This document shows, in pieces, positions 2,959 to 19,151 of a DNA stretch of 24,000 nucleotides. The stretch lies in contig NZ_AP017928.1 of assembly GCF_003584645.1 (NCBI RefSeq), positions 64,981 through 88,980 on the forward strand. The letters are read 5' to 3'. The first letter of the stretch is position 1. The number at the start of each line of letters is the position of its first letter. Source of the DNA: Methylocaldum marinum. GTDB taxonomy: Bacteria; Pseudomonadota; Gammaproteobacteria; Methylococcales; Methylococcaceae. The position numbers and the translations under genes are program-made. The notes below the pieces were generated by a model, which searched no databases, was not told the origin of the DNA, and was given only the letters and a program-made list of their open reading frames with translations.

Positions 2959-4251
2959 TTGGATCGGGAGATGACACCGGAAGAAGCGGTTCTGTATCAC
3001 CTGGCCGCACGCTATCTGAGTCTTTTGTTGCCGCGCAACGTCCGCGACGCGTTGGAGCCGCGGTTTCGGAAGGCGGAAGCGGTTTTGGGCGCGTCGCCGG
3101 AACTCGTCGAGTGGAGCAAGAAAGTCCTGCTGAGTTCGCATTGGGACGGAGTCCTGACGTCCCCGGGCGGCCTGGAAGCGCATGCCGGCCTGTTGTCCAC
3201 CGCGCTTTATGAAAGTCGCAAGGTGTGGATCGAATACGAAGGCAAGGACGAGCGCGTCCAGTTCAATCCGTTCGGCCTGGTGCAGCGGGATCGGGCCTTG
3301 CTGGCGATCGGTTCTTATAATCAACAGGCCCACCCCTTCATGCTGGCCGTTCGCAAAATCCGGAACGTGCAGCTGACCGACGAGCCGGCGGTATCGCCGC
3401 CGCCTGATTTCGAGCTTCAAACCTTTGTTGATACGCAGCTCAATTTTCCGACGAGCGCCGGGATTTTCGACGATCTCCAGCTGGAATTCGCGGAAAGTGC
3501 CTATGACTATGTCCGGTCTCACCTCTTAGTTGCCGACGAGGTGACGCTCGATCCTCCGGGAGAGTATGCCTACCCGGGCTATTTCCGACTGCGGGCCTCG
3601 GGCGTCCGGGATAGCCTGCGCTTTCGGCAATGGCTCCTGGGCTTCGGCGACGCCGTCCGGGTGCTGAAGCCCGAAGTTCTGCGCCGGGAGGTCGGGCGGG
3701 CTCAGCTGGATGGGCGCACCAATCTGGTCAATGCCGCCGAATTCGAACGCCTGCTCCGGCGGGAAATCGCCCGCTGCCGGCGCGATATTTCGGCCCGTTT
3801 TTGCCTGCTGCTGCTCGATCTCGATCATTTCAAGAAGATCAACGACACCCATGGCCATTTGGCGGGTGATCGCGTGCTCGAACAGCTTGCACTGCAGATT
3901 CGCGCCTATGATGCCTCGCGCTACGGTGGCGAGGAATTTGCAATTCTTTTGCCGGGAGCGGATGTCGGAGCGGCGGTCGACATCGCCGAGCGAATACGTA
4001 CCCGAATTGCGGCGTGGCCCTGGGAGAACGCGCTGGACCTGCCGATCGCGGTCACGGTCAGCATCGGGATTGCCGAATTCCCCGGCACTTTCGCGAAGCA
4101 GGCCGAGTTCATGCAGGGCGATACACCGGACGGGGATTGCCTGGCCGGTCTTGCGAAGTCGGTCAAAGCCGCGGCGGACCGAGCCCTTTATCAGGCGAAG
4201 CGAAACGGGCGGAATCGGGTTGCGAGTTTTTCGGATGCGGAGGATGTTTGA
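2959..4251 (+). CDS. WYL-domain / GGDEF-domain fusion protein (putative ligand-sensing diguanylate cyclase) with no recognisable N-terminal HTH
   Basis: TTG start 5 nt after AAAGGAGAAGG. WYL-like block VWIEYEGKDERVQFNPFGLVQRDRALLAIGSYNQ...AVRKIRNV. C-terminal GGDEF domain DLDHFKKINDTHGHLAGD ... RYGGEEFAILLPG (GGEEF at 3925-3939) ... ALYQAKRNGRNRV. Confidence 0.8.
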   Translation: MDREMTPEEAVLYHLAARYLSLLLPRNVRDALEPRFRKAEAVLGASPELVEWSKKVLLSSHWDGVLTSPGGLEAHAGLLSTALYESRKVWIEYEGKDERVQFNPFGLVQRDRALLAIGSYNQQAHPFMLAVRKIRNVQLTDEPAVSPPPDFELQTFVDTQLNFPTSAGIFDDLQLEFAESAYDYVRSHLLVADEVTLDPPGEYAYPGYFRLRASGVRDSLRFRQWLLGFGDAVRVLKPEVLRREVGRAQLDGRTNLVNAAEFERLLRREIARCRRDISARFCLLLLDLDHFKKINDTHGHLAGDRVLEQLALQIRAYDASRYGGEEFAILLPGADVGAAVDIAERIRTRIAAWPWENALDLPIAVTVSIGIAEFPGTFAKQAEFMQGDTPDGDCLAGLAKSVKAAADRALYQAKRNGRNRVASFSDAEDV

Positions 4252-5097: not shown

Positions 5098-5730
5098 TCA
5101 GCCGTCGGCTTCCCTGGCATCCCGAGCGAGCAAGGCCCGCAGCGCCGCCTTCGGGGCGTCGCGGAGCGGCACGCCGTGGTCGAAGCAGATCACCGCGAAA
5201 TCCAGCGCGAGTAAGTTCCGCACGCTTTGCCGGGTCAGGGCCGGGTTTTCGTGATAGGCGGCCGGTACGAACGCCAGAGGTTCGCCTTCCGCGTGGGCTA
5301 AAAGATCCGGACAAAACAGAATCCCGCGCGGCTGCGGCAACAGGAAGGCGTAATGCGCGGCTTCCGGCCCCGGCGTATGAATCGCCTGAAGCCCTCCCGG
5401 CAGAACATCGCCCGCCCGGTAGCGAATATCCGGTTCTTCCGCCATCGGCCGCGTGTCGACGGGGGCGTACACCTTTACTCCGAACTGGCGCCGGTAATGC
5501 CAGGCAGCCCGCTGGTGGCAGGCGGCGGTCAGGCAAATCGCTGCCGCCGGACCCAGCCGTTCGAGGGCTGCTGTTTCGAGCCTTAACGGATCGATCAGAA
5601 CGATACCGTTGCCGCACGCGATGGCATGCGCGTCGCTTTCGTAGCCGATACGATCGTCCTCTACGGACCAGCGCCACACTCCGGGCGCTACGGCCTCGAT
5701 TTCAGAGGCAATGGTTTTCGGTTCGGACAC
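5098..5730 (-). CDS. Metallo-beta-lactamase-fold-like protein (the canonical HxHxDH motif is not evident)
   Basis: Overall pattern GIVLIDPL ... IHTPGPEAAHYAF ... CFDHG. I place the start at the GTG at 5730, preceded by AAAGGAGG. The track start at 5805 adds a Pro-rich extension. Confidence 0.5.
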   Translation of the reverse strand: MSEPKTIASEIEAVAPGVWRWSVEDDRIGYESDAHAIACGNGIVLIDPLRLETAALERLGPAAAICLTAACHQRAAWHYRRQFGVKVYAPVDTRPMAEEPDIRYRAGDVLPGGLQAIHTPGPEAAHYAFLLPQPRGILFCPDLLAHAEGEPLAFVPAAYHENPALTRQSVRNLLALDFAVICFDHGVPLRDAPKAALRALLARDAREADG

Positions 5731-6007
5731 GAGACCTCCTTTAGGCACAGGCCTTTCTCGAAGAGGGTGTGCGGGAAGCGGCGGTGCCGGTGAAGCCGTC
5801 GGCAAAGGATTGCCGACCGTGCCGCTGTAGATCGCGAATCCTTTCGCGACATTACGCCGCTCGGCCGGCGGTTTGCGTCTTGATTTCCAAGACGGTATCT
5901 ACGCCGCGATCGGTTGTCATTCCGGACCAGACGCTTCCCACACACTTAGACTCCGGTTTCGTCCGTGTGCTCTGCTTGACACTCGATTTCTGGCGAGGCC
6001 GTGAATC

Positions 6008-6964
6008 CTAGAGGTCCAGGCGAAACATACGGACATCTTCCCGCTCGGCGCGTTTCACCGCATCCTTCTGCCGTTTTTCGCCGCCGATGATTTCCGGCAG
6101 ATCGTTCACGGCGGTGAAGCAGAATCGCCGCGGCAAAGCGGTGTAGAGCGAGCGGGGCGGTTCCCCGCAGCGCTTGAACAAGCGCCCGCTGTCGTGGCTG
6201 TGATACCAGATGCGATGCAAGCCGAATACCTCGACGATCAGCCATAGGGCCGCGGTCAGCGCGGCGTCGTCCCAGTAGCGGCGGTGAAAGGCCAGCCGTT
6301 CCTCGTAGTAACGGACCACGTCCTGCCAGCGTCCGCCGATGAGGCGGAACAGTCGAGGACGTTTTTCCACCGGCCTGGTCAGCCACTGCCGGGCGCGGGC
6401 GGCGGCCCAGCGGGCGTTGCCTATCCAGTCACTCTGCACCTCCTCGATCAGAGCCTCGCCCCGGGTCCAATCCAGGTCCAGCCGTACCCAGGCCAAGGTT
6501 TCGCGCACGCTCGAAATCGGATGGCCGACATATTCGAAGGGGCCTGCACCGGTTTGTCCCCGGGGCCGGACGAGGCGGCGATAGTGTCGTACATGGTCGG
6601 CGGAGAAGTCGAGTCGCAGCACCAGATTGATGCCCCGGCGGGATGTTTGAGCCCATCGGAATCGATCACGCTCGCCGCTCCAGGTTCCGATGGACAGCCG
6701 AAAATGCTCGACTGTCGGAGACCAGTCCAGGTAGCGGACGGTCTCGGCAGAGAGCTTGCCGTCGCCGTGATGCGCCAGCAGGGCCTTGATATTCGGCTTG
6801 TGTAGCAGCCCCGCGAAAGGACCGCCGCGCAGTTCGGCGATGCGAGGGCCGCGCGCTGCCGCGTGGCCGAGCAGGAATACGCCGTAGCGGTCCGGGTAGT
6901 AATAGAAATAAGACGATTCGTTGCTCAGGCAGGCGATCAGTTCCTGAGCGAGTAGCATTTCCAT
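6008..6964 (-). CDS. Hypothetical protein downstream of rtcB paralogue 1. No family recognised.
   Basis: Long ORF with protein-like composition from MEMLLAQELIACL. The upstream part of the track ORF (to 7171) is low-complexity. Start at 6964 or 6958 is uncertain. Confidence 0.55.
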   Translation of the reverse strand: MEMLLAQELIACLSNESSYFYYYPDRYGVFLLGHAAARGPRIAELRGGPFAGLLHKPNIKALLAHHGDGKLSAETVRYLDWSPTVEHFRLSIGTWSGERDRFRWAQTSRRGINLVLRLDFSADHVRHYRRLVRPRGQTGAGPFEYVGHPISSVRETLAWVRLDLDWTRGEALIEEVQSDWIGNARWAAARARQWLTRPVEKRPRLFRLIGGRWQDVVRYYEERLAFHRRYWDDAALTAALWLIVEVFGLHRIWYHSHDSGRLFKRCGEPPRSLYTALPRRFCFTAVNDLPEIIGGEKRQKDAVKRAEREDVRMFRLDL

Positions 6965-7235
6965 GATGAAGTCCTGTGTGTTCGGGTTCGTCTTCGGCGG
7001 ATGTAGCCCCGGGTCGAAATTCGCCTTGCGGCGGGTTGCGACAGCGAATGAATCGGCACACTCATGGTTAGTCTCCTGGTTGGTTGTGTTGGCAAAGCCG
7101 GGCGGAAAGTCGTTTCGCCTCGGCTTTCGTATCATCGAATGGTTGGAGGAACGTGCCGCGTCGATGTCCACCGCCGACGTTTCGGAGGCAGGACAGCCGA
7201 CACGGCGTTCGCTGCTGAAACGGAAAACGAGCCTT

Positions 7236-8444
7236 TCAGCCTTTCACGCACACGACCTGCTTCAAGGTATGCACCACGTCCACCAGGTCGGTCTGGCGTT
7301 CCATCACCCGGTCGATGTCCTTGTAGGCTCCCGGAATTTCGTCCACCACGGCTTTGTCCTTGCGGCACTCGACGCCTTCCGTCTGCTGCGCCAGGTCGTG
7401 GCGATTGAAGCGGCGCTTGGCCTCGCTGCGGCTCATGCGCCGTCCCGCGCCGTGGGAGCAGGAGCAGAACGACGCCGAATTGCCCTTGCCGCGTACGACA
7501 TAGCTCTTGGCGCCCATACTGCCGGGGATGATGCCCAGTTCGCCGTCCCGTGCCGAGATGGCGCCCTTGCGGGTGATGAACAGTGCTTCGCCGAGGTGGG
7601 TTTCACGCGCCACGTAGTTGTGATGGCAATTGATGGCCTCGCCCTCGGTGCGAAACGGCGGCAGATGAGGCCGGATCGCTTCCAGGATCAGATCCAGCAT
7701 CATGCGGCGGTTCAGCAGGGCATAATCCTGAGCCCATTCCACGGCTTCCCAGTAGTCGTCGAACAGGGGCGAGCCGTCGGCGAACCAGGCCAAATCCTTG
7801 TCGGGCAGCCGAGTATGTTCCTTTTCCGCCAGCTTGCGCGCCGCCGCGATGAAATACCGGCCCATGCAGTTGCCGATGCCGCGCGATCCCGAATGCAGCA
7901 TCACCCATACTCGCGAGGCCTCGTCCAGGCACAGTTCGATGAAGTGGTTGCCGCCGCCGAGGGTACCCAGTTGGGAAACCCAGGTGCGGACGAACTGGCG
8001 CTGCATCTTCATCAGCCCCGGATGCTTGCCGACGATGCGGTCGAGCCGGTCCGTCAGCGGGCGAGCCAGGCGGGCATGGGCCGAACCCTGGATCTTGTCG
8101 TAGGGGTGCTGTTCGAACCCCACCGGTACCGCGGCTTCGATGGCGCTGCGCAGACGGGCGAGGCCGTCAGGCAGATGCTCGGCGGAAAGGCTCAAGCGCA
8201 CTGCGTTCATGCCGCAGCCGATGTCCACCCCCACTGCCGCGGGGATAATGGCGGCCCGGGTGGGAATGACGCTGCCCACCGTCGCGCCGATGCCGGCATG
8301 CACATCCGGCATGGCCGCCACATGCCCGTGGACGATGGGCAGTTGGGCCACATTGAGAAGTTGTTGCAAGGCGGCCGGCTCGATATCGTCGGTCCACACC
8401 ATGACCGGTACTCGCCCTTTGTTATATCTCTGTTGAATAGGCAT
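7236..8444 (-). CDS. rtcB: RtcB-family RNA 3'-phosphate/2',3'-cyclic-phosphate ligase, paralogue 1 (not in the rtc operon)
   Basis: MPDVHAGIGATVGSVIPT, GVDIGCGM, HSGSRGIG, GELGIIPGSMGA, FCSCSHGAGR and the C-terminal HTLKQVVCVKG. The ATG at 8444 gives an N-terminus of the same length as E. coli RtcB. Confidence 0.9.
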   Translation of the reverse strand: MPIQQRYNKGRVPVMVWTDDIEPAALQQLLNVAQLPIVHGHVAAMPDVHAGIGATVGSVIPTRAAIIPAAVGVDIGCGMNAVRLSLSAEHLPDGLARLRSAIEAAVPVGFEQHPYDKIQGSAHARLARPLTDRLDRIVGKHPGLMKMQRQFVRTWVSQLGTLGGGNHFIELCLDEASRVWVMLHSGSRGIGNCMGRYFIAAARKLAEKEHTRLPDKDLAWFADGSPLFDDYWEAVEWAQDYALLNRRMMLDLILEAIRPHLPPFRTEGEAINCHHNYVARETHLGEALFITRKGAISARDGELGIIPGSMGAKSYVVRGKGNSASFCSCSHGAGRRMSRSEAKRRFNRHDLAQQTEGVECRKDKAVVDEIPGAYKDIDRVMERQTDLVDVVHTLKQVVCVKG

Positions 8445-8487
8445 AAATCGAAATCTCTGAATGAAAGTCGGGCATGCGGCGGCCAAT

Positions 8488-8520
8488 AAAAAACCCCTGG
8501 CGAGTGCAACTCGCCAGGGG
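8488..8520 (-). terminator. Intrinsic terminator between the mini-ORF and rtcB paralogue 1 (candidate attenuator)
   Basis: Minus-strand RNA reads CCCCUGGCGAG-UUGC-ACUCGCCAGGGG followed by UUUUUU. The stem is 11 bp and G+C-rich. It also reads as hairpin + TTTT on the plus strand. Confidence 0.8.
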
Positions 8521-8718: not shown

Positions 8719-8811
8719 GAAATTATCGGAGCGGCATTTCTTAAGTGCGTCGAGAGCAAGCATTCTCCTCTGCATAAGGGGGGCGCCCGGAACCGGACGA
8801 ACGATTTGTCT

Positions 8812-10794
8812 TCACTGCCTTGCGGCGAGCTCCCGTTGAACGCCGAACCAGATTCGGGTTTCCTCCCCGGTGAGCTCCAGGAACCGGTTGAATTCGGCTA
8901 TATCGTTCACCGGAATTTCCGCACGGGGCATCTTCAGCTCGGTGTAAACGGTGACGCGGTCGCGCTCTTTCCGGTAATAGCGATGAAAACTCCCCCAAAG
9001 CGACTGGTAATCCACTCTGGGTCCCAAATTGTCGATGCGGGCTCCCGAATTCAGCCGATACGTGATTTGGCTTTGAAAATCGATTCCCTGGAACGAATAC
9101 GGGTAGCGGCTGTTGGTTGTTTTGACGCTTCTCGCAAGATCGCGCAGCCATGGATCGACTTCGACGATATGGGTCATTTGAGCCGGATCGAAAGCGTTGC
9201 GGAATTCCGTGGTGGAACTGATGACCAGGGGGAACGACGGGTGGTCCAGGCCCGCTAATCGCAGGCTCGGACTCACCTTGTCTCCCATGATGTTGCGATA
9301 ATCCTCCAGGAGCCATTGTTCCCGATCCACCTGGGATCGGGACTCCAAACCCGAGCGAATCCCATCTGCCCAGTGAGAGTCGTAGCTTCTCTCGAGCGTC
9401 TCGACGATGGTTCCGTCATCGGTCAGGCGGTTGTCCGCTTTCATTTCCATCTTCCAGGTAAACGTTTCGGAAGCGAGGCTGCCCGGTGCCTCGGTTCCCC
9501 GGCCGACTGTCAGTTTCACCGCTCCGTGGATGGCGCGCGGCAGAAATTCGGCAGAAAGGTAGGGGTCCGTCAGATCGACGCAGGATTCATAGTTCGGCGT
9601 CAGCTTTACGCAGGCGATCATGTGATTGAAGTACGATGATGCCGGCAGCAGCAGTTTGGAGAGTGAGCGCCTGTTAGTCGATGTCAGCACGGGATAGGCA
9701 TCCAATCCCACCTTTCGGGCCAAATCGACGAACAGCATGGTTTTGTCCTTGCAGTCTCCGAAGCGGTGCGCCAGGGTCGTTGTCGTCGGTTTGGGGACCA
9801 CGCCGCTGTGTCCGTGTTCGATACCGACATAACGAATGTCGCGGGAGACGAAAGCGAACAGGCGGTTCAGCCGCTCTTCCGGCCGTGCGGCGTCACGGAT
9901 CAGACGCTCTGCCAATTCCTTGATTTCCTTGCCCTTCGATAGCGCTGAATCGGCCAGTGTCTGCATGGTGGCGGAGATGGCCGCCCAGCTCGTCGGTTCG
10001 GCCAGAACCAGTACCGGCAGGACGTCGTAAGGCGAGGGCATATCCCGCTCGGTCAGGACGGGAGGAATGGCTTTCTTCGTGGCGCAAGAGAGACTTAGGG
10101 GCGTTTCCCGGCATGCCAGTTCGGGGTAGTCGGTTTTCCACGCCGGTCGCCGCCGGTTGTCGATCCAGTCGACCCGGACTTGAAAACTCTCGATGGGGGT
10201 GAAGCGGGCCGGAAATAAAATCCGCGACCACGGCAGGGGCGATTTTTTCAAATCGGAGACCGTTTTATAAACCAGGACGGAAATGCTGCCCGGCCTTATT
10301 TGGGGAAACGGTACGGTGACGTAATACGAATCGTTGAAGATATCAGGAGAATTATCGCTGGTGATTTGCAGGGTGGCGGGATCGACCTCTATCGTCGTAC
10401 CGTCGGGCTGGAGGACGTAAGCCTCCAGAATTTCCGCCCGCTGAGTGGTTCCGTCGACCCAGAATCCGCTGTTTCCCCCATTCGATATCCCGCTGGACGT
10501 AACGTACAGCTGGATACTATGGGTGGTCTCCTCGTCGAGCTTGTCGTCCCTGAGCACAAATTCGTGCTTTTCGGCCAAGGTTACGCTCCCATAGCCGAGA
10601 TTCTGGAACAGGGACATTCTTTCCGCGTGCGGCAAAAGATCCTGATAGCGATAATGGGGCGGCACCGGAGACCAGCGCACGAGTTCCGTCGTGTTGCCCG
10701 GCAATTTGAGGACTCGGTTGGCTTTTGCGGCCGCCGTTCCGGCCGATATACCGAGCAACGCGAACAGGCCTATCAGCCGACAAATGATGCTCAT
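8812..10794 (-). CDS. Secreted DUF3857-like / transglutaminase-like cysteine protease family protein
   Basis: Signal peptide MSIICRLIGLFALLGISAGTAAA. Transglutaminase core RFGDCKDKT, then NHMIACV and VDLTD (Cys-His-Asp). Its start ATG overlaps the upstream stop (ATGA at 10791-10794). Confidence 0.75.
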   Translation of the reverse strand: MSIICRLIGLFALLGISAGTAAAKANRVLKLPGNTTELVRWSPVPPHYRYQDLLPHAERMSLFQNLGYGSVTLAEKHEFVLRDDKLDEETTHSIQLYVTSSGISNGGNSGFWVDGTTQRAEILEAYVLQPDGTTIEVDPATLQITSDNSPDIFNDSYYVTVPFPQIRPGSISVLVYKTVSDLKKSPLPWSRILFPARFTPIESFQVRVDWIDNRRRPAWKTDYPELACRETPLSLSCATKKAIPPVLTERDMPSPYDVLPVLVLAEPTSWAAISATMQTLADSALSKGKEIKELAERLIRDAARPEERLNRLFAFVSRDIRYVGIEHGHSGVVPKPTTTTLAHRFGDCKDKTMLFVDLARKVGLDAYPVLTSTNRRSLSKLLLPASSYFNHMIACVKLTPNYESCVDLTDPYLSAEFLPRAIHGAVKLTVGRGTEAPGSLASETFTWKMEMKADNRLTDDGTIVETLERSYDSHWADGIRSGLESRSQVDREQWLLEDYRNIMGDKVSPSLRLAGLDHPSFPLVISSTTEFRNAFDPAQMTHIVEVDPWLRDLARSVKTTNSRYPYSFQGIDFQSQITYRLNSGARIDNLGPRVDYQSLWGSFHRYYRKERDRVTVYTELKMPRAEIPVNDIAEFNRFLELTGEETRIWFGVQRELAARQ

Positions 10795-12595: not shown

Positions 12596-14203
12596 TCAGC
12601 GGGTGGCGAGATCCGCCGCCTGTACGCTCTTCCAGTTCAAGCCGAACCGTGCAAGATACTTCCGCAGCCGGTCCGCGTCGTTGCTGCTGGCGCGAGTCGA
12701 GCGGGACACCGCGAACAGGCGGCGGCCGGCATCGGAGAGGCTGGCCGACTCGCGGCAGATTCGAATCACCGATTCCAGTTGCAGCCGGTCGAAAAGATCG
12801 ATTTTGGCCAAATCCTCCGCCGGAATCAGACGATCGATGCATTCGGTCCGGGCGTCGCCGCCGGGCTCCCACTGGCGGCGCAGCCGGGCGATCTCGGTGT
12901 CCACCAGGGCGTCGGATATGCGGCCGCCGTCCGCCAGGGTCGCAAGGCGCATCACGGAAGCGCCGAGATCGCGGAAATTGCCGGTCCAGCGGGCGGCCGG
13001 CGAGGTCGCGAAGCTCAGATATTTCTGCCGGGCCTCTTTGCTGAAGCGCACCATTCGCCCGAGCTCGGCGGAGTGACGGGCTAGAAGATAGTCCAGGTTC
13101 GGCTCGATGTCTCCGGGCCGCTGGGCAAGGCCGGGCAGGCTGTAGGTCCAGAGATTGATGCGGGCGAACAAGTCCTCGCGGAACCGTCCGGCGATGACGT
13201 CCCGGCGCAAATCCCGGTGGGTGCCGGCGATGAGCTGAAAATCGCTGCCCACCTCCAGATCACCGCCCACCGGGAAGAAGGTCTTTTCCTCGATCGCCTT
13301 GAGCAGCATGGCCTGCTCGTCCGCTCCGAGTTCGCCGATCTCGTCGAGAAACAATAATCCTCTGTCCGCGCTGCGCAGGAGGCCGCCGCGCGCCGTTACC
13401 GCGCCGGTGAACGCGCCTTTGACGTGGCCGAACAAGGCCGAAGCGGCGCCGTCTCCACGCAGGGTGGCGCAGTTGACTTCGACGAAGCGGCCGTCGATCT
13501 GGCGGCGTGCCTTTTTCAGTTCGTACACCCGCCGCGCCAGGAAGGATTTGCCGGCCCCGGTCGGTCCCATGAGCAGGATGGGCGCCCTGGAGCGTACCGC
13601 CACCTGCTCGATTTCGGTGATCACCCGGTTGAAATGCTCGTTGCGGGTGGCAATGCCGGATTTGAGCAGAGCGATGGCGTCGGACTGTTCGCGGGCGAAG
13701 CGCCGGGCTATGGGGTCGTACTTGGACAGATCCAGGTCGATGAGCGCGTAATCGCCGACCTGGTTGATGCCATGCCGCTTGGGCGGGGAGCTTTGCAGCA
13801 AGAGGCCGGGGAGGTAGCGCGCCTCGGCCATCAGAAACAGGCAGATCTGCGCGACGTGGGTACCCGTGGTGATATGAATCCAGTACGCCTCCTCGTCGGT
13901 ATTGAAGGGATAAGCCGTGGCGAAGTCGAACAGCGCCGAGTAGACCTCGCCGAAATCCCAGGGATCGGCGATGTCCAACGCGACTGGATGAACTTTTGTC
14001 TCGGGCGAGACCGAGGCGATGTCGGCGACCAGCTGCTCGACCAGGGCGAGATGCCGGTGCGTGTAGAGCAGTTCGAAGCGATGCACTACCAGGTCCTCGC
14101 GCTGAGTCAGGGCTACCGTGGGACGCCATTTCTCCCAGCGCCCGCTGGTCTTTCCGGAATCGAGCTGGGTGCCGACGAAACCGATGACGACGATTTTTTT
14201 CAT
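12596..14203 (-). CDS. rtcR: RtcR, sigma54-dependent transcriptional activator with an N-terminal CARF-type sensor domain
   Basis: N-terminus MKKIVVIGFVGTQLDSG...WEKWRPTV. AAA+ Walker A GPTGAGKS and the GAFTGA sigma54-contact motif. Divergent from rsr-rtcBA. Confidence 0.9.
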   Translation of the reverse strand: MKKIVVIGFVGTQLDSGKTSGRWEKWRPTVALTQREDLVVHRFELLYTHRHLALVEQLVADIASVSPETKVHPVALDIADPWDFGEVYSALFDFATAYPFNTDEEAYWIHITTGTHVAQICLFLMAEARYLPGLLLQSSPPKRHGINQVGDYALIDLDLSKYDPIARRFAREQSDAIALLKSGIATRNEHFNRVITEIEQVAVRSRAPILLMGPTGAGKSFLARRVYELKKARRQIDGRFVEVNCATLRGDGAASALFGHVKGAFTGAVTARGGLLRSADRGLLFLDEIGELGADEQAMLLKAIEEKTFFPVGGDLEVGSDFQLIAGTHRDLRRDVIAGRFREDLFARINLWTYSLPGLAQRPGDIEPNLDYLLARHSAELGRMVRFSKEARQKYLSFATSPAARWTGNFRDLGASVMRLATLADGGRISDALVDTEIARLRRQWEPGGDARTECIDRLIPAEDLAKIDLFDRLQLESVIRICRESASLSDAGRRLFAVSRSTRASSNDADRLRKYLARFGLNWKSVQAADLATR

Positions 14204-14347: not shown

Positions 14348-14363
14348 TGGCACACCGATTGCT
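14348..14363 (+). promoter_or_regulatory. Sigma54 (-24/-12) promoter of the rsr-Y RNA-rtcBA operon
   Basis: TGGCACaccgaTTGCT matches the consensus TGGCAC-N5-TTGCW. It lies ~40 nt upstream of the rsr ATG, which has an AAGGAG RBS. Confidence 0.85.
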
Positions 14364-14404: not shown

Positions 14405-15958
14405 ATGGCGAACTTACAGTTGTTCCGGAGCCTGCGCGGCCGACTACTGCCGCCGGCCGGCGCCCTAAACCACGAAGGTGCTCCGAGCTATGGTTTCAGC
14501 CCTAAACACCGATTGGCCCAATACGCGGCCACCGGCTGCCTGAGCGGGACCTTCTACGCCGGGGCCGAAGCGCAACTGGACACGATCCTCGCGCTGTGCC
14601 GGGAGGTGGATGCCCGATTCATCGCCAAGACTGCCGTTTACTGCCGCGAGAGAGGTTATATGAAAGACACTCCCGCTCTGCTGGCGGCGGTGCTGACGAT
14701 CCGGGGCCGGGAATTCCTGCCCGAGGTGTTCGGCCGCGTGATCGGCAACGGCCGGATGCTGCGCAACTTCGTGCAGATCCTGCGGAGCGGCGCGGTCGGC
14801 CGGAAGTCCCTGGGTACTCGGCCGAAAAAGCTGATTCAGCGATGGCTGAACCAGGCTTCCGAGCGGGACTTGCTGAACGCCGCGGTGGGCAACGCGCCGT
14901 CGCTGGCAGACGTGGTGAAGATGGTTCACCCGAAGCCGGCCGAGCCGTGGCGGGAAGCGTTCTTCGCCTGGCTGATCGGCAAACCTTACGATGAATTGGC
15001 CCTGCCGCCGACGACGCGGGCGTTCGAGGCGTGGAAGCGCGATCCCTCGGGAGAACCACCGGAAGTGCCGTTCCAGATGCTGACGGCGCTCGATCTCGAT
15101 GCCGAGCAGTGGGCACGGATTGCCCGGCAGGGTGGGTGGCAGATGGTTCGCATGAACCTCAACACCTTCGTCCGGCACGGCGTGTTCGAGATCAACGGAA
15201 TGGCCGACACGGTCGCGGAAAAACTGCGTGACGCGAAGGCCATCGCCAGAGCGGGTGTATTTCCGTACCAGTTGCTTGCCGCCTACCGGGCGGCGGGGAA
15301 GGGCGTACCGCCGGTGGTCCGGGAGGCTTTGCAGGATGCGCTGGAGATTTCCCTGGCGAACGTGCCGGAGATGCCCGGCCGGGTCGTGGTCTGCCCTGAT
15401 GTGTCGGGTTCGATGAGCTCGCCGGTGACCGGTTTTCGCGGTTCGGCGAGCACCGCGGTGCGCTGCATCGATGTGGCGGCCCTGATCGGGGCGGCCTTGC
15501 TGCGGAAGAACCGGGAGACAATCGTGCTCCCGTTCGAGAACGATGTGGTGACCGTAGATCTGAATCCGCGCGACACGGTACTGACCAACGCGGAGAAGCT
15601 GGCGAGTATCGGCGGGGGCGGCACCAATTGCAGTGCTCCCCTGGCTCGGTTGAACCGCCGAAAGGCCAAGGCCGATCTCGTGCTGATGGTCTCGGATAAC
15701 GAGTCCTGGGTCGACGCCACCCGGCGCGGAGCGACGGCCACGCAGCGGGAATGGGAAACCTTCCGGCAGCGCAACCCGGCGGCCAAGCTGGTCTGCGTGG
15801 ATATCCAGCCGTACGGCACCACGCAGGCGGCGGAACGCGACGATATTCTGAATATCGGTGGATTTTCCGACGAGGTGTTCAGAGTATTGGGCACGTTCGC
15901 GGCGGGGCAGCTGAATCCGGAGCACTGGGTAGGCGTCATCGAGGAAATCGTTTTGTAA
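14405..15958 (+). CDS. rsr: Rsr (Ro60 orthologue): TROVE domain plus a C-terminal vWA domain
   Basis: N-terminal TROVE-like sequence (NHEGAPSYGFSPKHRLAQYAATGCLSGTFYA...KTAVYCRERGYMKDTPALL). vWA MIDAS motif DVSGSM. Operon context with rtcR/rtcB/rtcA. Confidence 0.88.
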   Translation: MANLQLFRSLRGRLLPPAGALNHEGAPSYGFSPKHRLAQYAATGCLSGTFYAGAEAQLDTILALCREVDARFIAKTAVYCRERGYMKDTPALLAAVLTIRGREFLPEVFGRVIGNGRMLRNFVQILRSGAVGRKSLGTRPKKLIQRWLNQASERDLLNAAVGNAPSLADVVKMVHPKPAEPWREAFFAWLIGKPYDELALPPTTRAFEAWKRDPSGEPPEVPFQMLTALDLDAEQWARIARQGGWQMVRMNLNTFVRHGVFEINGMADTVAEKLRDAKAIARAGVFPYQLLAAYRAAGKGVPPVVREALQDALEISLANVPEMPGRVVVCPDVSGSMSSPVTGFRGSASTAVRCIDVAALIGAALLRKNRETIVLPFENDVVTVDLNPRDTVLTNAEKLASIGGGGTNCSAPLARLNRRKAKADLVLMVSDNESWVDATRRGATATQREWETFRQRNPAAKLVCVDIQPYGTTQAAERDDILNIGGFSDEVFRVLGTFAAGQLNPEHWVGVIEEIVL

Positions 15959-15972
15959 GAGGTGGGTGAAGC

Positions 15973-16041
15973 GCCCGCGAATGCCGGTGTGATTACATCG
16001 CTGTCACCGATATACGGATCACATCAATTCTTGTCGCGGGC
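15973..16041 (+). ncRNA. Y RNA-like module 1 (short, YrlB-like, no tRNA-like domain)
   Basis: Closing stem CCCGCGA (15974-15980) / TCGCGGG (16034-16040). Conserved cores GCGAATGCC (15977-15985) and CTTGTCGC (16030-16037). Inner stem TGTGAT/ATCACA. Confidence 0.5.
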
Positions 16042-16061
16042 CTTCACATTGTTTGATTCCA

Positions 16062-16166
16062 GTGCGAATGCCGGCTTGGACTACATTGGTAAGCGGGAAA
16101 CCGCTCGGGTTCGACTCCCGTGATGCCGGGGTAACCGGTATCAGGTCCAGCCAATCCTTGTCGCAC
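16062..16166 (+). ncRNA. Y RNA-like module 2 (closing stem + T-arm-containing multi-hairpin domain)
   Basis: GTGCGA (16062-16067) / TCGCAC (16161-16166). GGCT(T)GGAC pairs with GTCCAGCC with a bulged T. Internal hairpins are AGCGG-GAAA-CCGCT, the T-arm CGGG-TTCGACT-CCCG, and GCCGG-GGTAA-CCGGT. Confidence 0.6.
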
Positions 16167-16186
16167 GCTCTTTTGGCAATAGTTTG

Positions 16187-16295
16187 GCGCGAATGCCAGG
16201 CAGGACTCCATCGGGTCGCCGGTTCGATCCCGGCCCGCGCTTCGGCGCGGTAGCTCAGCGGGTAGAGCAGATGTCCTGCCGCCCTCTTGTCGCGC
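16187..16295 (+). ncRNA. Y RNA-like module 3 (YrlA-like, with a complete permuted tRNA mimic)
   Basis: GCGCGA (16187-16192) / TCGCGC (16290-16295). GGCAGGAC pairs with GTCCTGCC. T-arm GCCGG-TTCGATC-CCGGC (16218-16234). Acceptor hairpin CCGCGC-TTCG-GCGCGG (16235-16250). D-arm TAGCTCAGCGGGTAGAGCA (16251-16269). Confidence 0.75.
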
Positions 16296-16314
16296 TACTT
16301 TCTTGACGATTTAT

Positions 16315-16437
16315 GGCGAATGCAGGTGGAACTACATGCCTACGATGCCGGTTGTCGCGGGTTCGATCCCCGCCGGTCTCACCAGGGACCGTAGCTCAGC
16401 GGATAGAGCACCGAACGTTTCACCGATCCTTGTCGCC
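16315..16437 (+). ncRNA. Y RNA-like module 4 (YrlA-like, permuted tRNA mimic with an ACCA acceptor loop)
   Basis: GGCGA (16315-16319) / TCGCC (16433-16437). GGTG(G)AAC pairs with GTTTCACC with a bulged G. T-arm GCGGG-TTCGATC-CCCGC (16357-16373). Acceptor CGGTCTC-ACCA-GGGACCG (16374-16391). D-arm TAGCTCAGCGGATAGAGCA (16392-16410). Confidence 0.75.
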
Positions 16438-16447
16438 GATCTTTTTT

Positions 16448-16572
16448 GCGATGAATGCAGATGGAACTACAGGGTAAAGCGGTGGGTGAAGAGCCCACAG
16501 GTTCCGGGTTCAAGTCCCGGTCGGCCCATGGCCGGTAGCGAAATAGCGAGTTTCATCGATCCTTGTCATCGC
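16448..16572 (+). ncRNA. Y RNA-like module 5 (T-arm-containing, degenerate D region)
   Basis: GCGATGA (16448-16454) / TCATCGC (16566-16572). GATG(G)AACT pairs with AGTTTCATC with a bulged G. Hairpin GTGGG-TGAAGAG-CCCAC, T-arm CCGGG-TTCAAGT-CCCGG, hairpin CGGCC-CAT-GGCCG. It ends 24 nt before the rtcB ATG. Confidence 0.6.
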
Positions 16573-16595
16573 ACCTTGATGTTGGGGGAAGACTC

Positions 16596-17816
16596 ATGAA
16601 CCAGGAAAACTACGAAGTCATTCAGCCGGCTGATGGCCGGCACATCAAGCTGTGGACCCGAGGCGTGCCGGTCGAGGACGACGCCAAGACACAGGTGTGC
16701 AACCTCGCCCGGTTGCCGTTCATCTTCAGCCATCTGGCGGTGATGCCGGACGTCCATTTGGGAAAGGGCTCGACCATCGGCAGCGTGATCCCGACTCTGG
16801 GTGCCGTCATTCCGGCGGCGGTCGGGGTGGATATCGGCTGCGGGATGATCGCGGCGCGTACTTCGCTGAGCGCCGCCGACCTGCCGGACAACCTGGCGGG
16901 CTGGCGCGCCGCCATCGAGAAGGCCGTGCCGCACGGCAGGACGCCCGGTAACCGCGACCGCGGCGCCTGGAGCAACCCGCCGGCGGACGTCGACGCGGTG
17001 TGGGCGGAGCTGGAACCGGACTTCCGGCGCATCGTCGAAAAGCACCCGAAGCTGGCCAGGACCAACAACCGTAACCACCTGGGGACGCTCGGAACCGGCA
17101 ACCACTTCATCGAAGTCTGCCTGGACGAGGCCGATAAGGTCTGGCTCATGCTGCACTCGGGGTCGCGCGGGGTCGGCAACGCTATCGGCAGCTATTTCAT
17201 CGAGCTGGCGAAAGAAGACATGCGGCGCTATTTCATCAACCTGCCCGATGCGGACCTGGCCTATTTTCCGCAAGGCACGGAGCATTTCCGCGACTACGTG
17301 GAGGCGGTCGAATGGGCGCAGAGCTACGCCCGGCTGAACCGCGCGCTGATGATGAAGCACGTGGTCGAAGCCGTGCGCGGGGTAATGGCAAAGCCGTTCG
17401 AAGCGGAAGTCGAGGCGGTGAATTGCCACCATAATTACGTACAGCGCGAGCACCACTTCGGAAAGAACATCCTAGTGACCCGCAAGGGCGCGGTTTCGGC
17501 GCGGGACGGCGAACTCGGCATCATCCCGGGTTCCATGGGCGCGCGCTCCTACATCGTGCGCGGCAAGGGCGAGGAGCAATCCTTCTGCTCGTGCAGCCAC
17601 GGTGCCGGACGGATGATGTCGCGTTCCGAGGCGAAGCGGCGTTTCACCGTGGCCGATCAGGCCAGGGCCACCGAGGGCGTCGAGTGCCGCAAAGATGCCG
17701 AGGTGATCGACGAGATTCCCATGGCGTACAAGGATATCGACGCGGTGATGCGAGCCCAGGCGGATTTGGTGGAGATCGTGCACACCCTGAAGCAGGTGGT
17801 GTGCGTGAAAGGATAG
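16596..17816 (+). CDS. rtcB: RtcB RNA ligase (operon copy, paralogue 2)
   Basis: MPDVHLGKGSTIGSVIPT, GVDIGCGM, HSGSRGVG, GELGIIPGSMGA, FCSCSHGAGR and C-terminal HTLKQVVCVKG. ATG at 16596 follows GGGGGAAG. The track start at 16563 would lie inside Y module 5. Confidence 0.92.
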   Translation: MNQENYEVIQPADGRHIKLWTRGVPVEDDAKTQVCNLARLPFIFSHLAVMPDVHLGKGSTIGSVIPTLGAVIPAAVGVDIGCGMIAARTSLSAADLPDNLAGWRAAIEKAVPHGRTPGNRDRGAWSNPPADVDAVWAELEPDFRRIVEKHPKLARTNNRNHLGTLGTGNHFIEVCLDEADKVWLMLHSGSRGVGNAIGSYFIELAKEDMRRYFINLPDADLAYFPQGTEHFRDYVEAVEWAQSYARLNRALMMKHVVEAVRGVMAKPFEAEVEAVNCHHNYVQREHHFGKNILVTRKGAVSARDGELGIIPGSMGARSYIVRGKGEEQSFCSCSHGAGRMMSRSEAKRRFTVADQARATEGVECRKDAEVIDEIPMAYKDIDAVMRAQADLVEIVHTLKQVVCVKG

Positions 17817-17863: not shown

Positions 17864-18889
17864 ATGACCCAGTGGTTGGAATTGGACGGCTCGGAGGGCG
17901 AGGGCGGCGGACAGATTCTGCGAACGGCGTTGTCCTTGTCCATGTGCACCGGCACGCCCTTCCGCATCGTGAATATCCGCGCCAAGCGCAAAACGCCGGG
18001 GTTGATGCGTCAGCATCTCACCGCGGTGCAGGCTGCGGCGGAGATTTGCGGGGCGGAAGTCGACGGCGGCCGGGTGGGCTCCCAGGCCTTGAGTTTCGCC
18101 CCGGACAAAATCCGCGGCGGCGATTATCGCTTCGCCATCGGCACCGCGGGCAGTTGCACCCTGGTATTCCAGACCGTGTTGCCGGCCCTGTTGCTTGCAG
18201 ACGCATCCAGCCGCATCGAGTTCCACGGCGGCACCCACAATCCGATGTCGCCGCCGTTCCATTTCCTGGAACGCGCCTTTGTGCCGCTGCTGCGCCGGAT
18301 GGGGGCGGAGGTTTCGCTGGAGCTGAAGCGCTTCGGGTTTTACCCCGCCGGCGGCGGGAGCTGCACGGCCCGCATCGAACCGGTAGCGAAGCTCATGCCT
18401 CTGGTTCTCGAACAACGCGGCGCCCGTTTGCGCGCCTACGCGGAAAGCTTCATCGCCGCTCTGCCGGTCCATATCGCCCGGCGCGAACTGGATGTGATCC
18501 GCAGGCGACTGGGGTGGAGCGATGAGCAAGTCCTGCTGCGCGGTCTGGCGAACGATCAGGGACCGGGCAATGCCTTGCTGGTAACGTTCGAACACGACCA
18601 AGTTACGGAGGTCTTCAGCGGCTTCGGAGAAAAAGGCATCACCGCGGAAACCGTGGCCGAGAGAACCGCCGACCAAGTGCGCCGCTATCTGGCTTCGGGA
18701 GCCGCAGTGGGGTACTACTTGGCCGACCAGTTGCTCTTGCCGCTGGCCTTGGCCGGCGGCGGCTCGTTCACGGCGTCGGCATTAAGCCGGCATACGCTCA
18801 CCAACGCCGAAGTCATCCGGCGATTCCTCGGGATCGGGATTCGGATGGACAAAACCGGCGATGAAGCGTTTCGAATAGAGCTCGGATAG
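17864..18889 (+). CDS. rtcA: RtcA RNA 3'-terminal phosphate cyclase
   Basis: LDGSEGEGGGQILRTALSLSM, LMRQHLTAVQAAAEICGA, GGDYRFAIGTAGSCTLVFQTVLPAL and FYPAGGG closely parallel E. coli RtcA. The track N-terminal extension (from 17591) overlaps rtcB and is rejected. Confidence 0.92.
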   Translation: MTQWLELDGSEGEGGGQILRTALSLSMCTGTPFRIVNIRAKRKTPGLMRQHLTAVQAAAEICGAEVDGGRVGSQALSFAPDKIRGGDYRFAIGTAGSCTLVFQTVLPALLLADASSRIEFHGGTHNPMSPPFHFLERAFVPLLRRMGAEVSLELKRFGFYPAGGGSCTARIEPVAKLMPLVLEQRGARLRAYAESFIAALPVHIARRELDVIRRRLGWSDEQVLLRGLANDQGPGNALLVTFEHDQVTEVFSGFGEKGITAETVAERTADQVRRYLASGAAVGYYLADQLLLPLALAGGGSFTASALSRHTLTNAEVIRRFLGIGIRMDKTGDEAFRIELG

Positions 18890-19151
18890 TATCCCGGAAG
18901 GGAAAGACAAATGCCGGTGCCTGCCCCGGTTACCGAGTAAACAAGTTGCGTTTGCTATGCTTTTTCGGGTGTCTTTGAAGGGCCTTCAGAGGCCATTATT
19001 CCTCAGGATTACGGGGGGAGTTGTCAACAAACGGCGGGTCTAAGCCCCGCACCGAATCTAACAAAATCGGGAGATCCCCCGGCTCTGACGGGGGATACTT
19101 ACTTTTCGGTCAACCGGATCGCCTGCAAGCTGCGCTTGCGGGTTACCTCAA

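What the first reader, a model, noticed from the sequence alone, without database searches (positions are those of the whole stretch)
15961..16595. Five tandem Y-RNA-like modules fill the rsr-rtcB spacer
The 637-nt gap between rsr and rtcB is built from five consecutive units. Each unit is closed by a long-range stem whose strands carry conserved cores.
- The 5' core GCGAATGC(C/A) starts at 15977, 16064, 16189 and 16316, with a variant GATGAATGCA around 16453.
- The 3' core CTTGTCGC is at 16030, 16157, 16286 and 16429, with a variant CTTGTCATCGC at 16562.

The terminal base pairs differ between units but stay complementary: CCCGCGA/TCGCGGG, GTGCGA/TCGCAC, GCGCGA/TCGCGC, GGCGA/TCGCC and GCGATGA/TCATCGC. 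This compensatory variation argues for selection on RNA structure. A second helix with a single bulged nucleotide follows in units 2, 4 and 5. Units 2-5 contain a T-arm (GGTTCGAnTCC-type loop), and units 3 and 4 contain a full T-arm/acceptor/D-arm set.

Established knowledge: bacterial Rsr binds Y RNAs (YrlA/YrlB) encoded next to rsr, and Salmonella has an RtcR-controlled rsr-yrlBA-rtcBA operon with two such RNAs. An array of five heterogeneous modules, one short and four tRNA-like, is more than that reference arrangement. It suggests a family of Rsr adaptors with different specificities.
Basis: partly seen in the sequence, partly recalled or inferred. Interest (0 to 1): 0.75.

Follow-up and report, generated by a model that had tools for sequence, protein, structure and literature searches.

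The report
Five Y RNAs between rsr and rtcB
The gap between the Ro60-like gene rsr and the RNA ligase gene rtcB encodes five small structured "Y RNA" modules of the known YrlA/YrlB kind, and arrays of three to five such modules are normal in related bacteria, so this is a well-read but fairly ordinary example.

Summary
The 637-nt rsr-rtcB spacer (15959-16595) contains exactly five head-to-tail modules. Each has a closing stem, a conserved asymmetric internal loop (5' AUGC / 3' CUUG) and a second 8-9 bp helix.

- **Family scores.** Rfam's YrlA model scores units 4, 3, 5 and 2 at 82, 66, 43 and 32 bits; only unit 4 passes the curated cut-off. Unit 1 is a short hairpin with the architecture of Salmonella YrlB.
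- **Non-circular test.** A covariance model built without any window sequence recovers the same five (36-58 bits; next best hit 15 bits).
- **Operon.** The locus is the known RtcR/sigma-54 operon: rtcR divergent, a perfect TGGCAC-N5-TTGC promoter, then rsr, the Y RNAs, rtcB and rtcA.
- **How unusual.** Five is more than the two in Salmonella, but not among relatives. In 80 genome loci the median is 4 modules (range 0-8, 18 loci with five or more). In 80 metagenome loci the median is 3.
- **Age of the units.** Each unit is closer to same-position modules in other taxa than to its neighbours, so the five are old paralogue classes. They follow a recurrent order: short, T-arm only, YrlA, then often a second T-arm class.

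Verdict: a new member of a known kind. That the classes have different partners is plausible but untested.

The parts
12596..14203 (-). rtcR, a sigma-54 enhancer-binding activator, divergent from the operon
   Evidence: Pfam RtcR 5.3e-81 and Sigma54_activat 1.5e-46
14348..14362 (+). Sigma-54 (-24/-12) promoter TGGCACACCGATTGC, 43 nt upstream of the rsr ATG
   Evidence: It is the only zero-mismatch match to TGGCAC-N5-TTGC in the window. Function is inferred from the Salmonella RtcR-dependent operon (PMC7790460).
14405..15958 (+). rsr, the Ro60 orthologue (TROVE ring plus vWA domain)
   Evidence: Pfam vWA_Ro60 7.4e-18. Full-length match to D. radiodurans Rsr, PDB 2nvo, E 3.7e-20.
15971..16043 (+). 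Unit 1: short Y RNA module, YrlB-like. Closing stem GCCCGCGA/UCGCGGGC, loop AUGCC/AAUUCUUG, a 9-bp second helix and a small apical hairpin.
   Evidence: R2 (leave-window-out model) 56.0 bits. Fold z = -2.6. Aligns to the Rfam YrlB consensus with the same layout, but scores only 15.4 bits against a cut-off of 97. Local YrlA hit 21.9 bits.
16058..16170 (+). Unit 2: Y module with a V hairpin (GCGGGAAACCGC), a T-arm and a 9-bp hairpin, but no D-arm (the leading T-arm-only class)
   Evidence: Rfam YrlA 32.1 bits, E 5.5e-05. R2 35.8 bits. Fold z = -3.5. The class is conserved in 15 other loci, and 15 of 20 pairs show compensatory changes.
16183..16299 (+). Unit 3: compact YrlA-type module with a T-arm, a CCGCGC-UUCG-GCGCGG stem and a D-arm
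   Evidence: Rfam YrlA 65.9 bits, just under the cut-off of 69. R2 46.0 bits. The orthologue in L006 is 85% identical.
16310..16442 (+). Unit 4: canonical YrlA with the Rsr-binding stem, V region, T-arm, acceptor-like stem (loop ACCA) and D-arm
   Evidence: Rfam YrlA 82.4 bits, above the cut-off of 69, E 5e-18. R2 57.5 bits. 81-83% identical to YrlA modules of Burkholderiales loci.
16445..16575 (+). Unit 5: Y module with the closing stem GCGAUGA/UCAUCGC (U-A where the others have C-G), a V hairpin, a T-arm, a short acceptor-like hairpin and only the 5' half of a D-arm (the trailing T-arm-only class)
   Evidence: Rfam YrlA 43.1 bits. R2 52.1 bits. Fold z = -3.5. The class is conserved in 15 other loci, and 19 of 27 pairs show compensatory changes.
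16596..17816 (+). rtcB, RNA 3'-phosphate ligase
   Evidence: Pfam RtcB 1.8e-131
17864..18889 (+). rtcA, RNA 3'-terminal phosphate cyclase
   Evidence: Pfam RTC 2.4e-80. The start ATG at 17864 follows a GGGAGA ribosome-binding site.
19074..19096 (+). Terminator-like hairpin after rtcA; probable end of the operon
   Evidence: 8-bp stem with 6 G-C pairs and a T-rich tail. This is a consensus match only.

Best explanation
The spacer is an array of five bacterial Y RNA genes: one YrlB-like, two YrlA, and two YrlA-derived variants that keep the T-arm. They sit inside an RtcR/sigma-54-controlled rsr-Y RNA-rtcB-rtcA operon.

**Shown here**
- Every module has the same basal part: a closing stem ending in GA/UC, an asymmetric loop 5'-AUGC(C/A) / 3'-(A/G)AUCCUUG, and an 8-9 bp second helix followed by UACAU. 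This basal part matches the stem of the Rfam YrlA and YrlB consensus sequences.
- The basal part covaries across more than 500 modules that lie just 3' of rsr in 160 loci.
- The apical parts differ. They fall into classes that are conserved in sequence and in order across Methylococcaceae and Burkholderiales.

**Inferred from the Salmonella, Mycobacterium and Deinococcus work (PMC4201824, PMC7790460)**
- The array is transcribed with rsr and rtcBA from the sigma-54 promoter when RtcR is activated.
- It is cut into about 70-135-nt RNAs in the U-rich linkers.
- Each RNA is bound and stabilised by the Rsr ring through its basal stem.
- The apical domain acts as the effector-binding or tRNA-mimicking part. 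It could, for example, tether Rsr to PNPase or another RNA enzyme, or compete for tRNA-directed nucleases.
- Different classes would then give Rsr different partners.
For: **Family match.** The Rfam YrlA model hits units 4, 3, 5 and 2 at 82.4, 65.9, 43.1 and 32.1 bits, full length. Unit 1 aligns end to end with the YrlB consensus layout.

**Non-circular detection.** The leave-window-out model R2 finds exactly these five (35.8-57.5 bits; next best 14.6) with filters off.

**Covariation.**
- On an alignment made by MAFFT, not fitted to the structure, 92.5% of cells pair against 69% in shuffles.
- There are 106 double changes against 35 in shuffles.
- The covariation score is 0.648, against at most 0.143 when partners are slid.
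- Helix 2 was not used to choose the sequences, yet it is 91% paired, and 7 of its 8 pairs show double changes.

**Location and strand.** The 544 R1 hits listed (558 found) all lie on the rsr strand, and almost all lie directly 3' of rsr.

**Operon parts.** RtcR, Rsr, RtcB and RtcA are identified. The promoter is a perfect sigma-54 match. No sigma-70-like promoter or terminator-like site falls inside the spacer.

**Old paralogue classes.**
- Each unit is 75-85% identical to same-class modules elsewhere, but at most 70% identical to its neighbours.
- The order short, T-arm only, YrlA, then T-arm only recurs across loci.
- The unit 2 and unit 5 classes have covarying apical structures.
- Orthologues of units 1-4 occur in L006, and of units 1, 4 and 5 in L001.
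Against: - There are no expression, processing or Rsr-binding data for this organism, so everything after the DNA level is inferred by homology.
- Only unit 4 passes Rfam's curated YrlA threshold.
- Unit 1 scores far below the YrlB threshold. That model is built from Salmonella sequences only.
- In a fold of the whole spacer, unit 4 is partly mispaired in the minimum-energy structure, and unit 3 forms only in the centroid.
- Taken alone, units 3 and 4 do not fold significantly better than shuffles (z = -1.5 and -0.75).
Confidence: 0.85

Rival explanations
1. Only the canonical YrlA (unit 4, perhaps unit 3) and the YrlB-like unit 1 are functional Y RNAs. Units 2 and 5 are decaying duplicates of YrlA that have lost their D-arm.
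For: Units 2 and 5 score far below the Rfam cut-off (32 and 43 bits). They lack a complete D-arm.
Against: - Both belong to classes found in the same array position in many Burkholderiales and other loci.
- Those classes have conserved apical hairpins and compensatory changes: 15 of 20 pairs for the unit 2 class and 19 of 27 for the unit 5 class.
- Their nearest relatives are in other taxa, not in the window.
- Their individual folds are the most significant of the five (z = -3.5).
Confidence: 0.06
2. The modules act mainly in cis, as structured processing or stability elements of the polycistronic mRNA. They would uncouple rsr from rtcBA expression or protect the transcript ends, rather than act as free ribonucleoprotein components.
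For: - The modules lie within one transcription unit with no internal promoter or terminator signal.
- Unit 5 ends only 20 nt before the rtcB start codon, so cleavage there would define the rtcBA 5' end.
Against: - Homologous YrlA and YrlB are free, Rsr-bound RNAs in Salmonella and M. smegmatis (PMC4201824).
- Modules follow rsr even where a large ORF does not follow closely, for example L074, L078 and L079.
- The conserved tRNA-like apical domains are not needed for a cis role.
- The two roles are not mutually exclusive.
Confidence: 0.07
3. The region is a degenerate tRNA gene array or a tRNA-derived repeat element with no present function.
For: - T-arms and D-arms are present.
- The Rfam tRNA model gives a 27.3-bit hit at 16385-16528 that joins the D-arm of unit 4 to the T-arm of unit 5.
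- A YrlA origin from dimeric tRNA transcripts has been proposed (bioRxiv 10.1101/312249).
Against: - ARAGORN finds no tRNA in the window.
- The tRNA hit is below the cut-off of 29 and needs an 88-nt insertion.
- The T-arm precedes the D-arm within each unit, which is the YrlA permutation.
- The non-tRNA basal stem is the most conserved and most strongly covarying part.
Confidence: 0.02

Closest known systems
Salmonella Typhimurium rsr-yrlB-yrlA-rtcB-rtcA operon (Chen et al. 2013; Chen et al. 2014, PMC4201824; Hughes et al. 2020, PMC7790460)
   Same: - Divergent rtcR, a sigma-54 promoter, and the gene order rsr, then Y RNAs, then rtcB, then rtcA.
- The short YrlB-type RNA comes first and the tRNA-like YrlA-type RNAs follow.
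- The Rsr-binding stem sequence is the same: CGAAUGC ... CUUGUCG.
   Different: - Five modules instead of two.
- Two YrlA copies of different subtypes: a compact one of 117 nt and one of 133 nt with a V region.
- Two additional classes that keep the T-arm but lack a full D-arm.
- No experimental data for this organism.
YrlA family, Rfam RF02553 (tRNA-mimicking bacterial Y RNA; structure described in bioRxiv 10.1101/312249)
   Same: Units 3 and 4 have every element: closing stem, CGAAUGC loop, second helix, T stem-loop 5' of the D stem-loop, and an acceptor-like stem between them.
   Different: - Unit 3 is 3 bits under the curated cut-off.
- Units 2 and 5 match only through the basal stem and the T-arm.
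YrlB, Rfam RF02565 (Salmonella short Y RNA), and the long-hairpin Y RNAs of M. smegmatis (YrlB) and D. radiodurans (Yrn2)
   Same: Unit 1 has the same layout as the YrlB consensus: closing stem, AUGC loop, a helix ending in GAUUA, an apical part of about 20 nt, and UUUGUCGCG on the 3' side.
   Different: Sequence similarity outside the core is low (15.4 bits against a cut-off of 97). Chen et al. 2014 found YrlB homologues only in Salmonella serovars by BLAST.
Metazoan Y RNA sets (two to four Y RNAs per vertebrate species, each bound by Ro60)
   Same: Several paralogous RNAs share one Ro60-binding stem and differ in the distal domain. The idea that each recruits different partners is the same.
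   Different: - Metazoan Y RNAs are separate RNA polymerase III genes, not a processed operon array.
- Their distal domains are not tRNA-like.

Membership tests
YrlA (Rfam RF02553) | Covariance-model score at or above the curated gathering score of 69 bits | tested here: met
   Unit 4 scores 82.4 bits. The other units do not reach it: unit 3 at 65.9, unit 5 at 43.1, unit 2 at 32.1 and unit 1 at 21.9 bits. By this criterion only unit 4 is a member.
YrlA (Chen et al. 2014 criteria) | Encoded within 4 kb of the Ro60 orthologue and on the same strand | tested here: met
   All five units lie 13-617 nt after the rsr stop codon, on the + strand.
YrlA (Chen et al. 2014 criteria) | Basal stem carrying the GNCGAAN0-1G motif, the putative Rsr-binding site | tested here: met
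   Unit 4 matches exactly (GGCGAAUG). Units 1-3 have CGAAUG with a different base at the first position. Unit 5 has UGAAUG, with a compensating A on the 3' strand.
YrlA | tRNA-like domain: T stem-loop 5' of the D stem-loop, with an acceptor-like stem between them | tested here: met
   Units 3 and 4 have all three elements (alignments). Units 2 and 5 have the T-arm and a following hairpin, but no D-arm or only half of one. The feature is therefore not met for those two.
Bacterial Y RNA (functional definition) | Bound and stabilised by Rsr; carries tRNA-type modifications; can form a complex with PNPase | not testable with these tools
   This needs immunoprecipitation, Northern blotting or biochemistry.
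YrlB (Rfam RF02565) | Covariance-model score at or above 97 bits | tested here: not met
   Unit 1 scores 15.4 bits, E 0.84 over 101 nt. The layout matches, but the model is specific to Salmonella. Unit 1 is described here as YrlB-like, not as a member.
RtcR-regulated RNA repair operon (rsr-yrlBA-rtcBA type) | Divergent rtcR with its CARF-like N-terminal domain and sigma-54 AAA+ domain | tested here: met
   Pfam RtcR 5.3e-81 and Sigma54_activat 1.5e-46, at 12596-14203 on the - strand.
RtcR-regulated RNA repair operon (rsr-yrlBA-rtcBA type) | Sigma-54 -24/-12 promoter upstream of the first gene | tested here: met
   TGGCACACCGATTGC at 14348-14362 is the only perfect match in the window. Promoter activity was not tested.
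RtcR-regulated RNA repair operon (rsr-yrlBA-rtcBA type) | Gene order rsr, noncoding RNAs, rtcB, rtcA on one strand | tested here: met
tRNA genes | Cloverleaf detected by ARAGORN, or the Rfam tRNA model at or above 29 bits | tested here: not met
   ARAGORN finds no tRNA gene. The Rfam tRNA model gives 27.3 bits, and only by joining parts of units 4 and 5 across an 88-nt insertion.
Deinococcus Y RNA (Rfam RF01053) | Covariance-model score at or above 80 bits | tested here: not met
   20.1 bits, a partial match over the T-arm region of unit 2 only.

The most novel reading that the evidence does not exclude
The rsr-linked Y RNA locus may be a conserved, ordered set of at least four or five distinct Y RNA classes, not 'YrlB plus YrlA'. 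The classes would be: a short hairpin, T-arm plus hairpin, compact YrlA, YrlA with a V region, and V-T-acceptor with a half D-arm.

These classes share one Rsr-binding stem and have been kept apart across Methylococcales, Burkholderiales and other lineages. Current family models capture only about one module in five. Each class would couple Rsr to a different enzyme or mimic a different tRNA-binding surface.

I found no description of these extra classes or of their fixed order in the literature I could read. The main reviews were not available.
Probability: 0.3. Interest if true: 0.6.

Novelty: new member of a known kind. Interest (0 to 1): 0.35.

Why it matters
How the bacterial Ro60/Rsr, Y RNA and RtcB system works is still open. 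Only the PNPase tether in Deinococcus is understood.

This locus adds one well-defined example and, more usefully, a comparative frame.
- Most rsr loci related to this one carry three to five modules that share a single Rsr-binding stem.
- Standard annotation, meaning Rfam at its curated threshold, finds only 13 of 68 such modules in 15 loci.
- The module classes are old and ordered. That supports the idea that Rsr uses a panel of adaptors and tells experimenters which RNAs to test.

For the window itself nothing departs from the known system, so the practical value is correct annotation.

Tried and rejected
- **tRNA genes.** ARAGORN finds none. The Rfam tRNA, tmRNA and tymovirus-like hits in the spacer are all sub-threshold matches to the T-arms.
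- **Recent tandem duplication.** Rejected. Within-window identities are 0.34-0.70, against 0.75-0.85 to same-class modules in other taxa.
- **Internal promoters or terminators in the spacer.** None found by the consensus scan. TGGCAATAGTTTGGC at 16174, in the unit 2-unit 3 linker, is a two-mismatch match to the sigma-54 pattern. That is no better than chance: 24 such matches were found and 24.4 expected.
- **Fold of the whole 637-nt spacer.** Units 1, 2 and 5 fold as modules in the minimum-energy structure and unit 3 in the centroid, but unit 4 is partly mispaired. I treat this as uninformative at this length.
- **Closer relatives.** The metagenome scan produced none (best 76%), so per-unit orthologue covariation within the family could not be deepened. 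The loci served instead as an independent census.
- **Literature.**
  - The reviews and the 2013 Cell paper (PMC10870794, PMC6047535, PMC6542706, PMC3646564) are not held.
  - The supplementary tables of Chen et al. 2014, which list the copies per genome, are not held either.
  - Whether arrays of more than two Y RNAs have been described explicitly therefore remains unchecked.
- **ORF 16303-16599 (98 aa, TTG start).** It overlaps units 4-5. I treat it as spurious, because it is made entirely of the structured RNA modules.
Full report
**1. What is in the sequence**

The window carries the following genes (Pfam; coordinates).

| Gene | Coordinates | Strand |
|---|---|---|
| rtcR | 12596-14203 | - |
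| rsr | 14405-15958 | + |
| rtcB | 16596-17816 | + |
| rtcA | 17864-18889 | + |

- The rsr product matches D. radiodurans Rsr (PDB 2nvo) over its full length, E 3.7e-20. It also matches phage and vertebrate Ro60 structures.
- The only perfect match to the sigma-54 consensus TGGCAC-N5-TTGC in 24 kb lies at 14348-14362, 43 nt before the rsr start.
- A terminator-like hairpin follows rtcA at 19074-19096.
- No promoter-like or terminator-like site was found inside the 637-nt rsr-rtcB gap.

This is the layout of the Salmonella rsr-yrlBA-rtcBA operon (PMC7790460, PMC4201824).

**2. The five units**

A simple scan looked for GAATG, then CTTGT 35-200 nt later, with at least five complementary closing pairs. 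It returns five modules in the gap and nothing else in the window. The one difference is that the unit-5 variant starts at 16450.

Folded singly, every unit gives the same basal architecture:
- a closing stem of 5-8 bp ending in GA/UC;
- an asymmetric internal loop, 5' AUGC(C/A) opposite 3' (A/G)AUCCUUG;
- a second helix of 8-9 bp followed by (C/U)UACA(U/G).

A bulged nucleotide in the second helix is present only in unit 2.

The apical parts differ.

| Unit | Apical part |
|---|---|
| 1 | small hairpin |
| 2 | V hairpin, T-arm, 9-bp hairpin |
| 3 | T-arm, 6-bp stem with UUCG loop, D-arm |
| 4 | V region, T-arm, 7-bp stem with ACCA loop, D-arm |
| 5 | V hairpin, T-arm, short hairpin, 5' half of a D-arm |

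**3. Comparison with curated families**

- At Rfam's gathering threshold the window has one hit: YrlA at 16313-16442, 82.4 bits against a cut-off of 69.
- With E-value reporting on the gap alone, full-length YrlA alignments also appear for unit 3 (65.9 bits), unit 5 (43.1) and unit 2 (32.1).
- Unit 1 aligns end to end with the YrlB consensus and has the same layout. It scores only 15.4 bits against a cut-off of 97. It also gives a local YrlA hit through the basal stem, 21.9 bits.
- ARAGORN finds no tRNA.
- A 27.3-bit tRNA-model hit at 16385-16528 joins the D-arm of unit 4 to the T-arm of unit 5 across 88 nt. It is an artefact of adjacent YrlA-type modules.

**4. Is it more than chance, tested without circularity**

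I built a covariance model of the basal part only, with the closing stem and second helix modelled and the apical part left as an insertion.

- Model R1 used 29 modules as seed, five of them from the window.
- Model R2 used 25 modules, none from the window.
- With all filters off, R2 finds the same five intervals at 57.5, 56.0, 52.1, 46.0 and 35.8 bits. The next best hit in 48 kb of both strands is 14.6 bits. R1 gives the same picture.

On the MAFFT alignment of the R1 seed, which was not fitted to the structure:
- 92.5% of cells form standard pairs, against 69.0% after shuffling (0 of 500 shuffles reach this);
- 106 cells have changes on both sides, against 35 after shuffling;
- the covariation score is 0.648, against at most 0.143 when the 3' partners are slid by 1-3 columns.

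The closing stem was a criterion for choosing the seeds, so its pairing is partly selected. The second helix was not a criterion. It is 91% paired, and 7 of its 8 pairs show double changes.

**5. Related loci**

*Genome set.* The Rsr protein retrieved 80 genome loci at 63-80% identity. The nearest are two Methylococcaceae assemblies at 80% and 76%, and most of the rest are Burkholderiales.
- R1 finds 314 modules in these loci plus the window. Every listed hit is on the rsr strand and, apart from a few isolated hits (such as L074 2879-2955 upstream of rsr, and hits inside or beyond the next gene in L006 and L076), lies just 3' of rsr.
- Counting the 300 hits listed, the median is 4 modules per locus, the mean 3.7 and the range 0-8. 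Eighteen of 80 loci have five or more.
- Undibacterium loci have seven or eight modules, five of them short.

*Metagenome set.* An independent set of 80 metagenome loci, many on truncated contigs, gives 244 modules. All are on the rsr strand. The median is 3, and 13 loci have five or more.

*Standard annotation.* Rfam at its curated threshold annotates only 13 YrlA among the 68 modules that R1 finds in 15 of the genome loci. Standard annotation therefore sees about one module per locus.

**6. The five units are old classes, not recent copies**

- Each unit is most similar to modules of the same type and array position in other taxa. Unit 4, for example, is 0.81-0.83 identical to YrlA modules of Burkholderiales loci.
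- Identities between units within the window are 0.34-0.70.
- Classifying modules as s (short), t (T-arm only), A (T-arm and D-arm) or x (long, no motif) gives the recurrent patterns stA, stAt and xstAt. The window is stAAt.
- L005 carries tAAt, which matches units 2-5 in order.
- The spacer alignment with the two closest loci shows orthologues of units 1-4 in L006 and of units 1, 4 and 5 in L001. The acceptor-like stem of unit 4 shows compensatory changes between them.
- In the unit 5 class (16 sequences), 19 of 27 predicted pairs show at least one compensatory change. These include the T-arm, the short hairpin and a 3-bp stem that closes the apical junction.
- In the unit 2 class (16 sequences), 15 of 20 pairs do.

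**7. Mechanism**

*Shown:* sequence and structure homology to YrlA and YrlB, operon context, covariation, and conservation of distinct classes.

*Inferred from published work on homologues.* Chen et al. 2014 (PMC4201824) report the following.
- Salmonella YrlA and YrlB and M. smegmatis YrlA and YrlB are bound by Rsr. The M. smegmatis pair is processed from a single precursor.
- Y RNAs with tRNA-like domains carry tRNA-type modifications, shown for Salmonella YrlA and D. radiodurans Yrn1. M. smegmatis YrlA is cleaved by RNase P and receives CCA.
- D. radiodurans Y RNA tethers Rsr to PNPase.

Hughes et al. 2020 (PMC7790460) show that the Salmonella operon is induced through RtcR by damaged tRNAs. 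They suggest that the tRNA-like domain might compete for an anticodon nuclease.

By analogy, the five units here would be excised from the operon transcript at the pyrimidine-rich linkers, for example CUCUUUUGG, CUACUUUCUUG and GAUCUUUUUUGC. Each would be bound by Rsr through its basal stem, and each would present a different apical domain. The class conservation found here fits it, but nothing here tests it.

**8. Comparison, novelty and score**

- The locus is a member of the known rsr-Y RNA-rtcBA operon type.
- Unit 4 is a YrlA by every sequence criterion and unit 3 nearly so.
- Units 2 and 5 are YrlA-derived variants. Unit 1 is YrlB-like in architecture only.
- Relative to Salmonella the array is larger. 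Relative to its own relatives it is ordinary.
- Chen et al. 2014 counted 355 YrlA-like sequences in 276 genomes and reported multiple hits per locus. Their tables, the later reviews and the 2013 Cell paper could not be read.

I therefore rate the finding as a new member of a known kind, with interest 0.35. The more novel reading is that an ordered panel of at least four conserved classes is largely missed by current models. I give this reading a probability of about 0.3 of being both correct and undescribed.

Noticed in passing
window 7236-8486 (- strand): There is a second rtcB paralogue, 59% identical to the operon rtcB, about 8 kb upstream. Its neighbours at 6008-7171 (-) and 8741-9316 (-) have no Pfam or NCBIfam match. 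No Y-like module lies nearby; the best R1 hit there is a 10-bit GC-rich hairpin at 8494-8520.
   Followed up: partly
L031 293-1498 and L057 4-1557: These loci carry arrays of about 9 and 14 tRNA genes roughly 2.5 kb upstream of rsr, presumably on the far side of rtcR. A tRNA array next to an operon that is induced by damaged tRNAs may be more than coincidence.
   Followed up: no
L006 about 1800-2035 and 3496-3635: In the closest relative, a roughly 240-nt insertion with internal inverted repeats separates the orthologues of units 2 and 3. An extra YrlA (86.5 bits, the best-scoring YrlA hit among the 15 loci scanned with Rfam) lies about 1.1 kb after the start of the next long ORF (presumably rtcB).
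   Followed up: partly
L009, L011, L012, L013 (Undibacterium and a related assembly), about 5630-7145; also L084: These arrays have seven or eight modules. Five are consecutive short (about 60-75 nt) hairpin-type modules, followed by a T-arm-only module and one or two longer tRNA-like modules. They are the largest arrays seen.
   Followed up: partly
window 16385-16528; L006 2103-2233: The Rfam tRNA model matches across two adjacent YrlA-type modules, joining the D-arm of one to the T-arm of the next. The score is 27.3 bits in the window and 45.1 bits in L006, the latter above the curated cut-off of 29. Automated annotation could therefore call false tRNAs with long 'introns' in such arrays.
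   Followed up: yes
L132 and L133 829-902; L155 1075-1147; L074 2879-2955: Isolated short Y-like modules (39-49 bits) lie about 1.1-1.7 kb upstream of rsr on the same strand, outside the main array.
   Followed up: no
window 16379-16382: The loop of the acceptor-like stem of unit 4 reads ACCA, like a tRNA 3' end. This fits the published idea that YrlA arose from a tRNA dimer. The loop is not conserved in the two closest orthologues (AAAU in L006, a longer GCCAACCAU in L001), so it is probably not selected.
   Followed up: yes
L005 (assembly labelled Verrucomicrobiaceae), 5636-6179: This locus carries modules matching window units 2-5 in the same order, beside an Rsr 71% identical to the window's. 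That points either to horizontal transfer of the whole locus or to a mis-binned contig.
   Followed up: no
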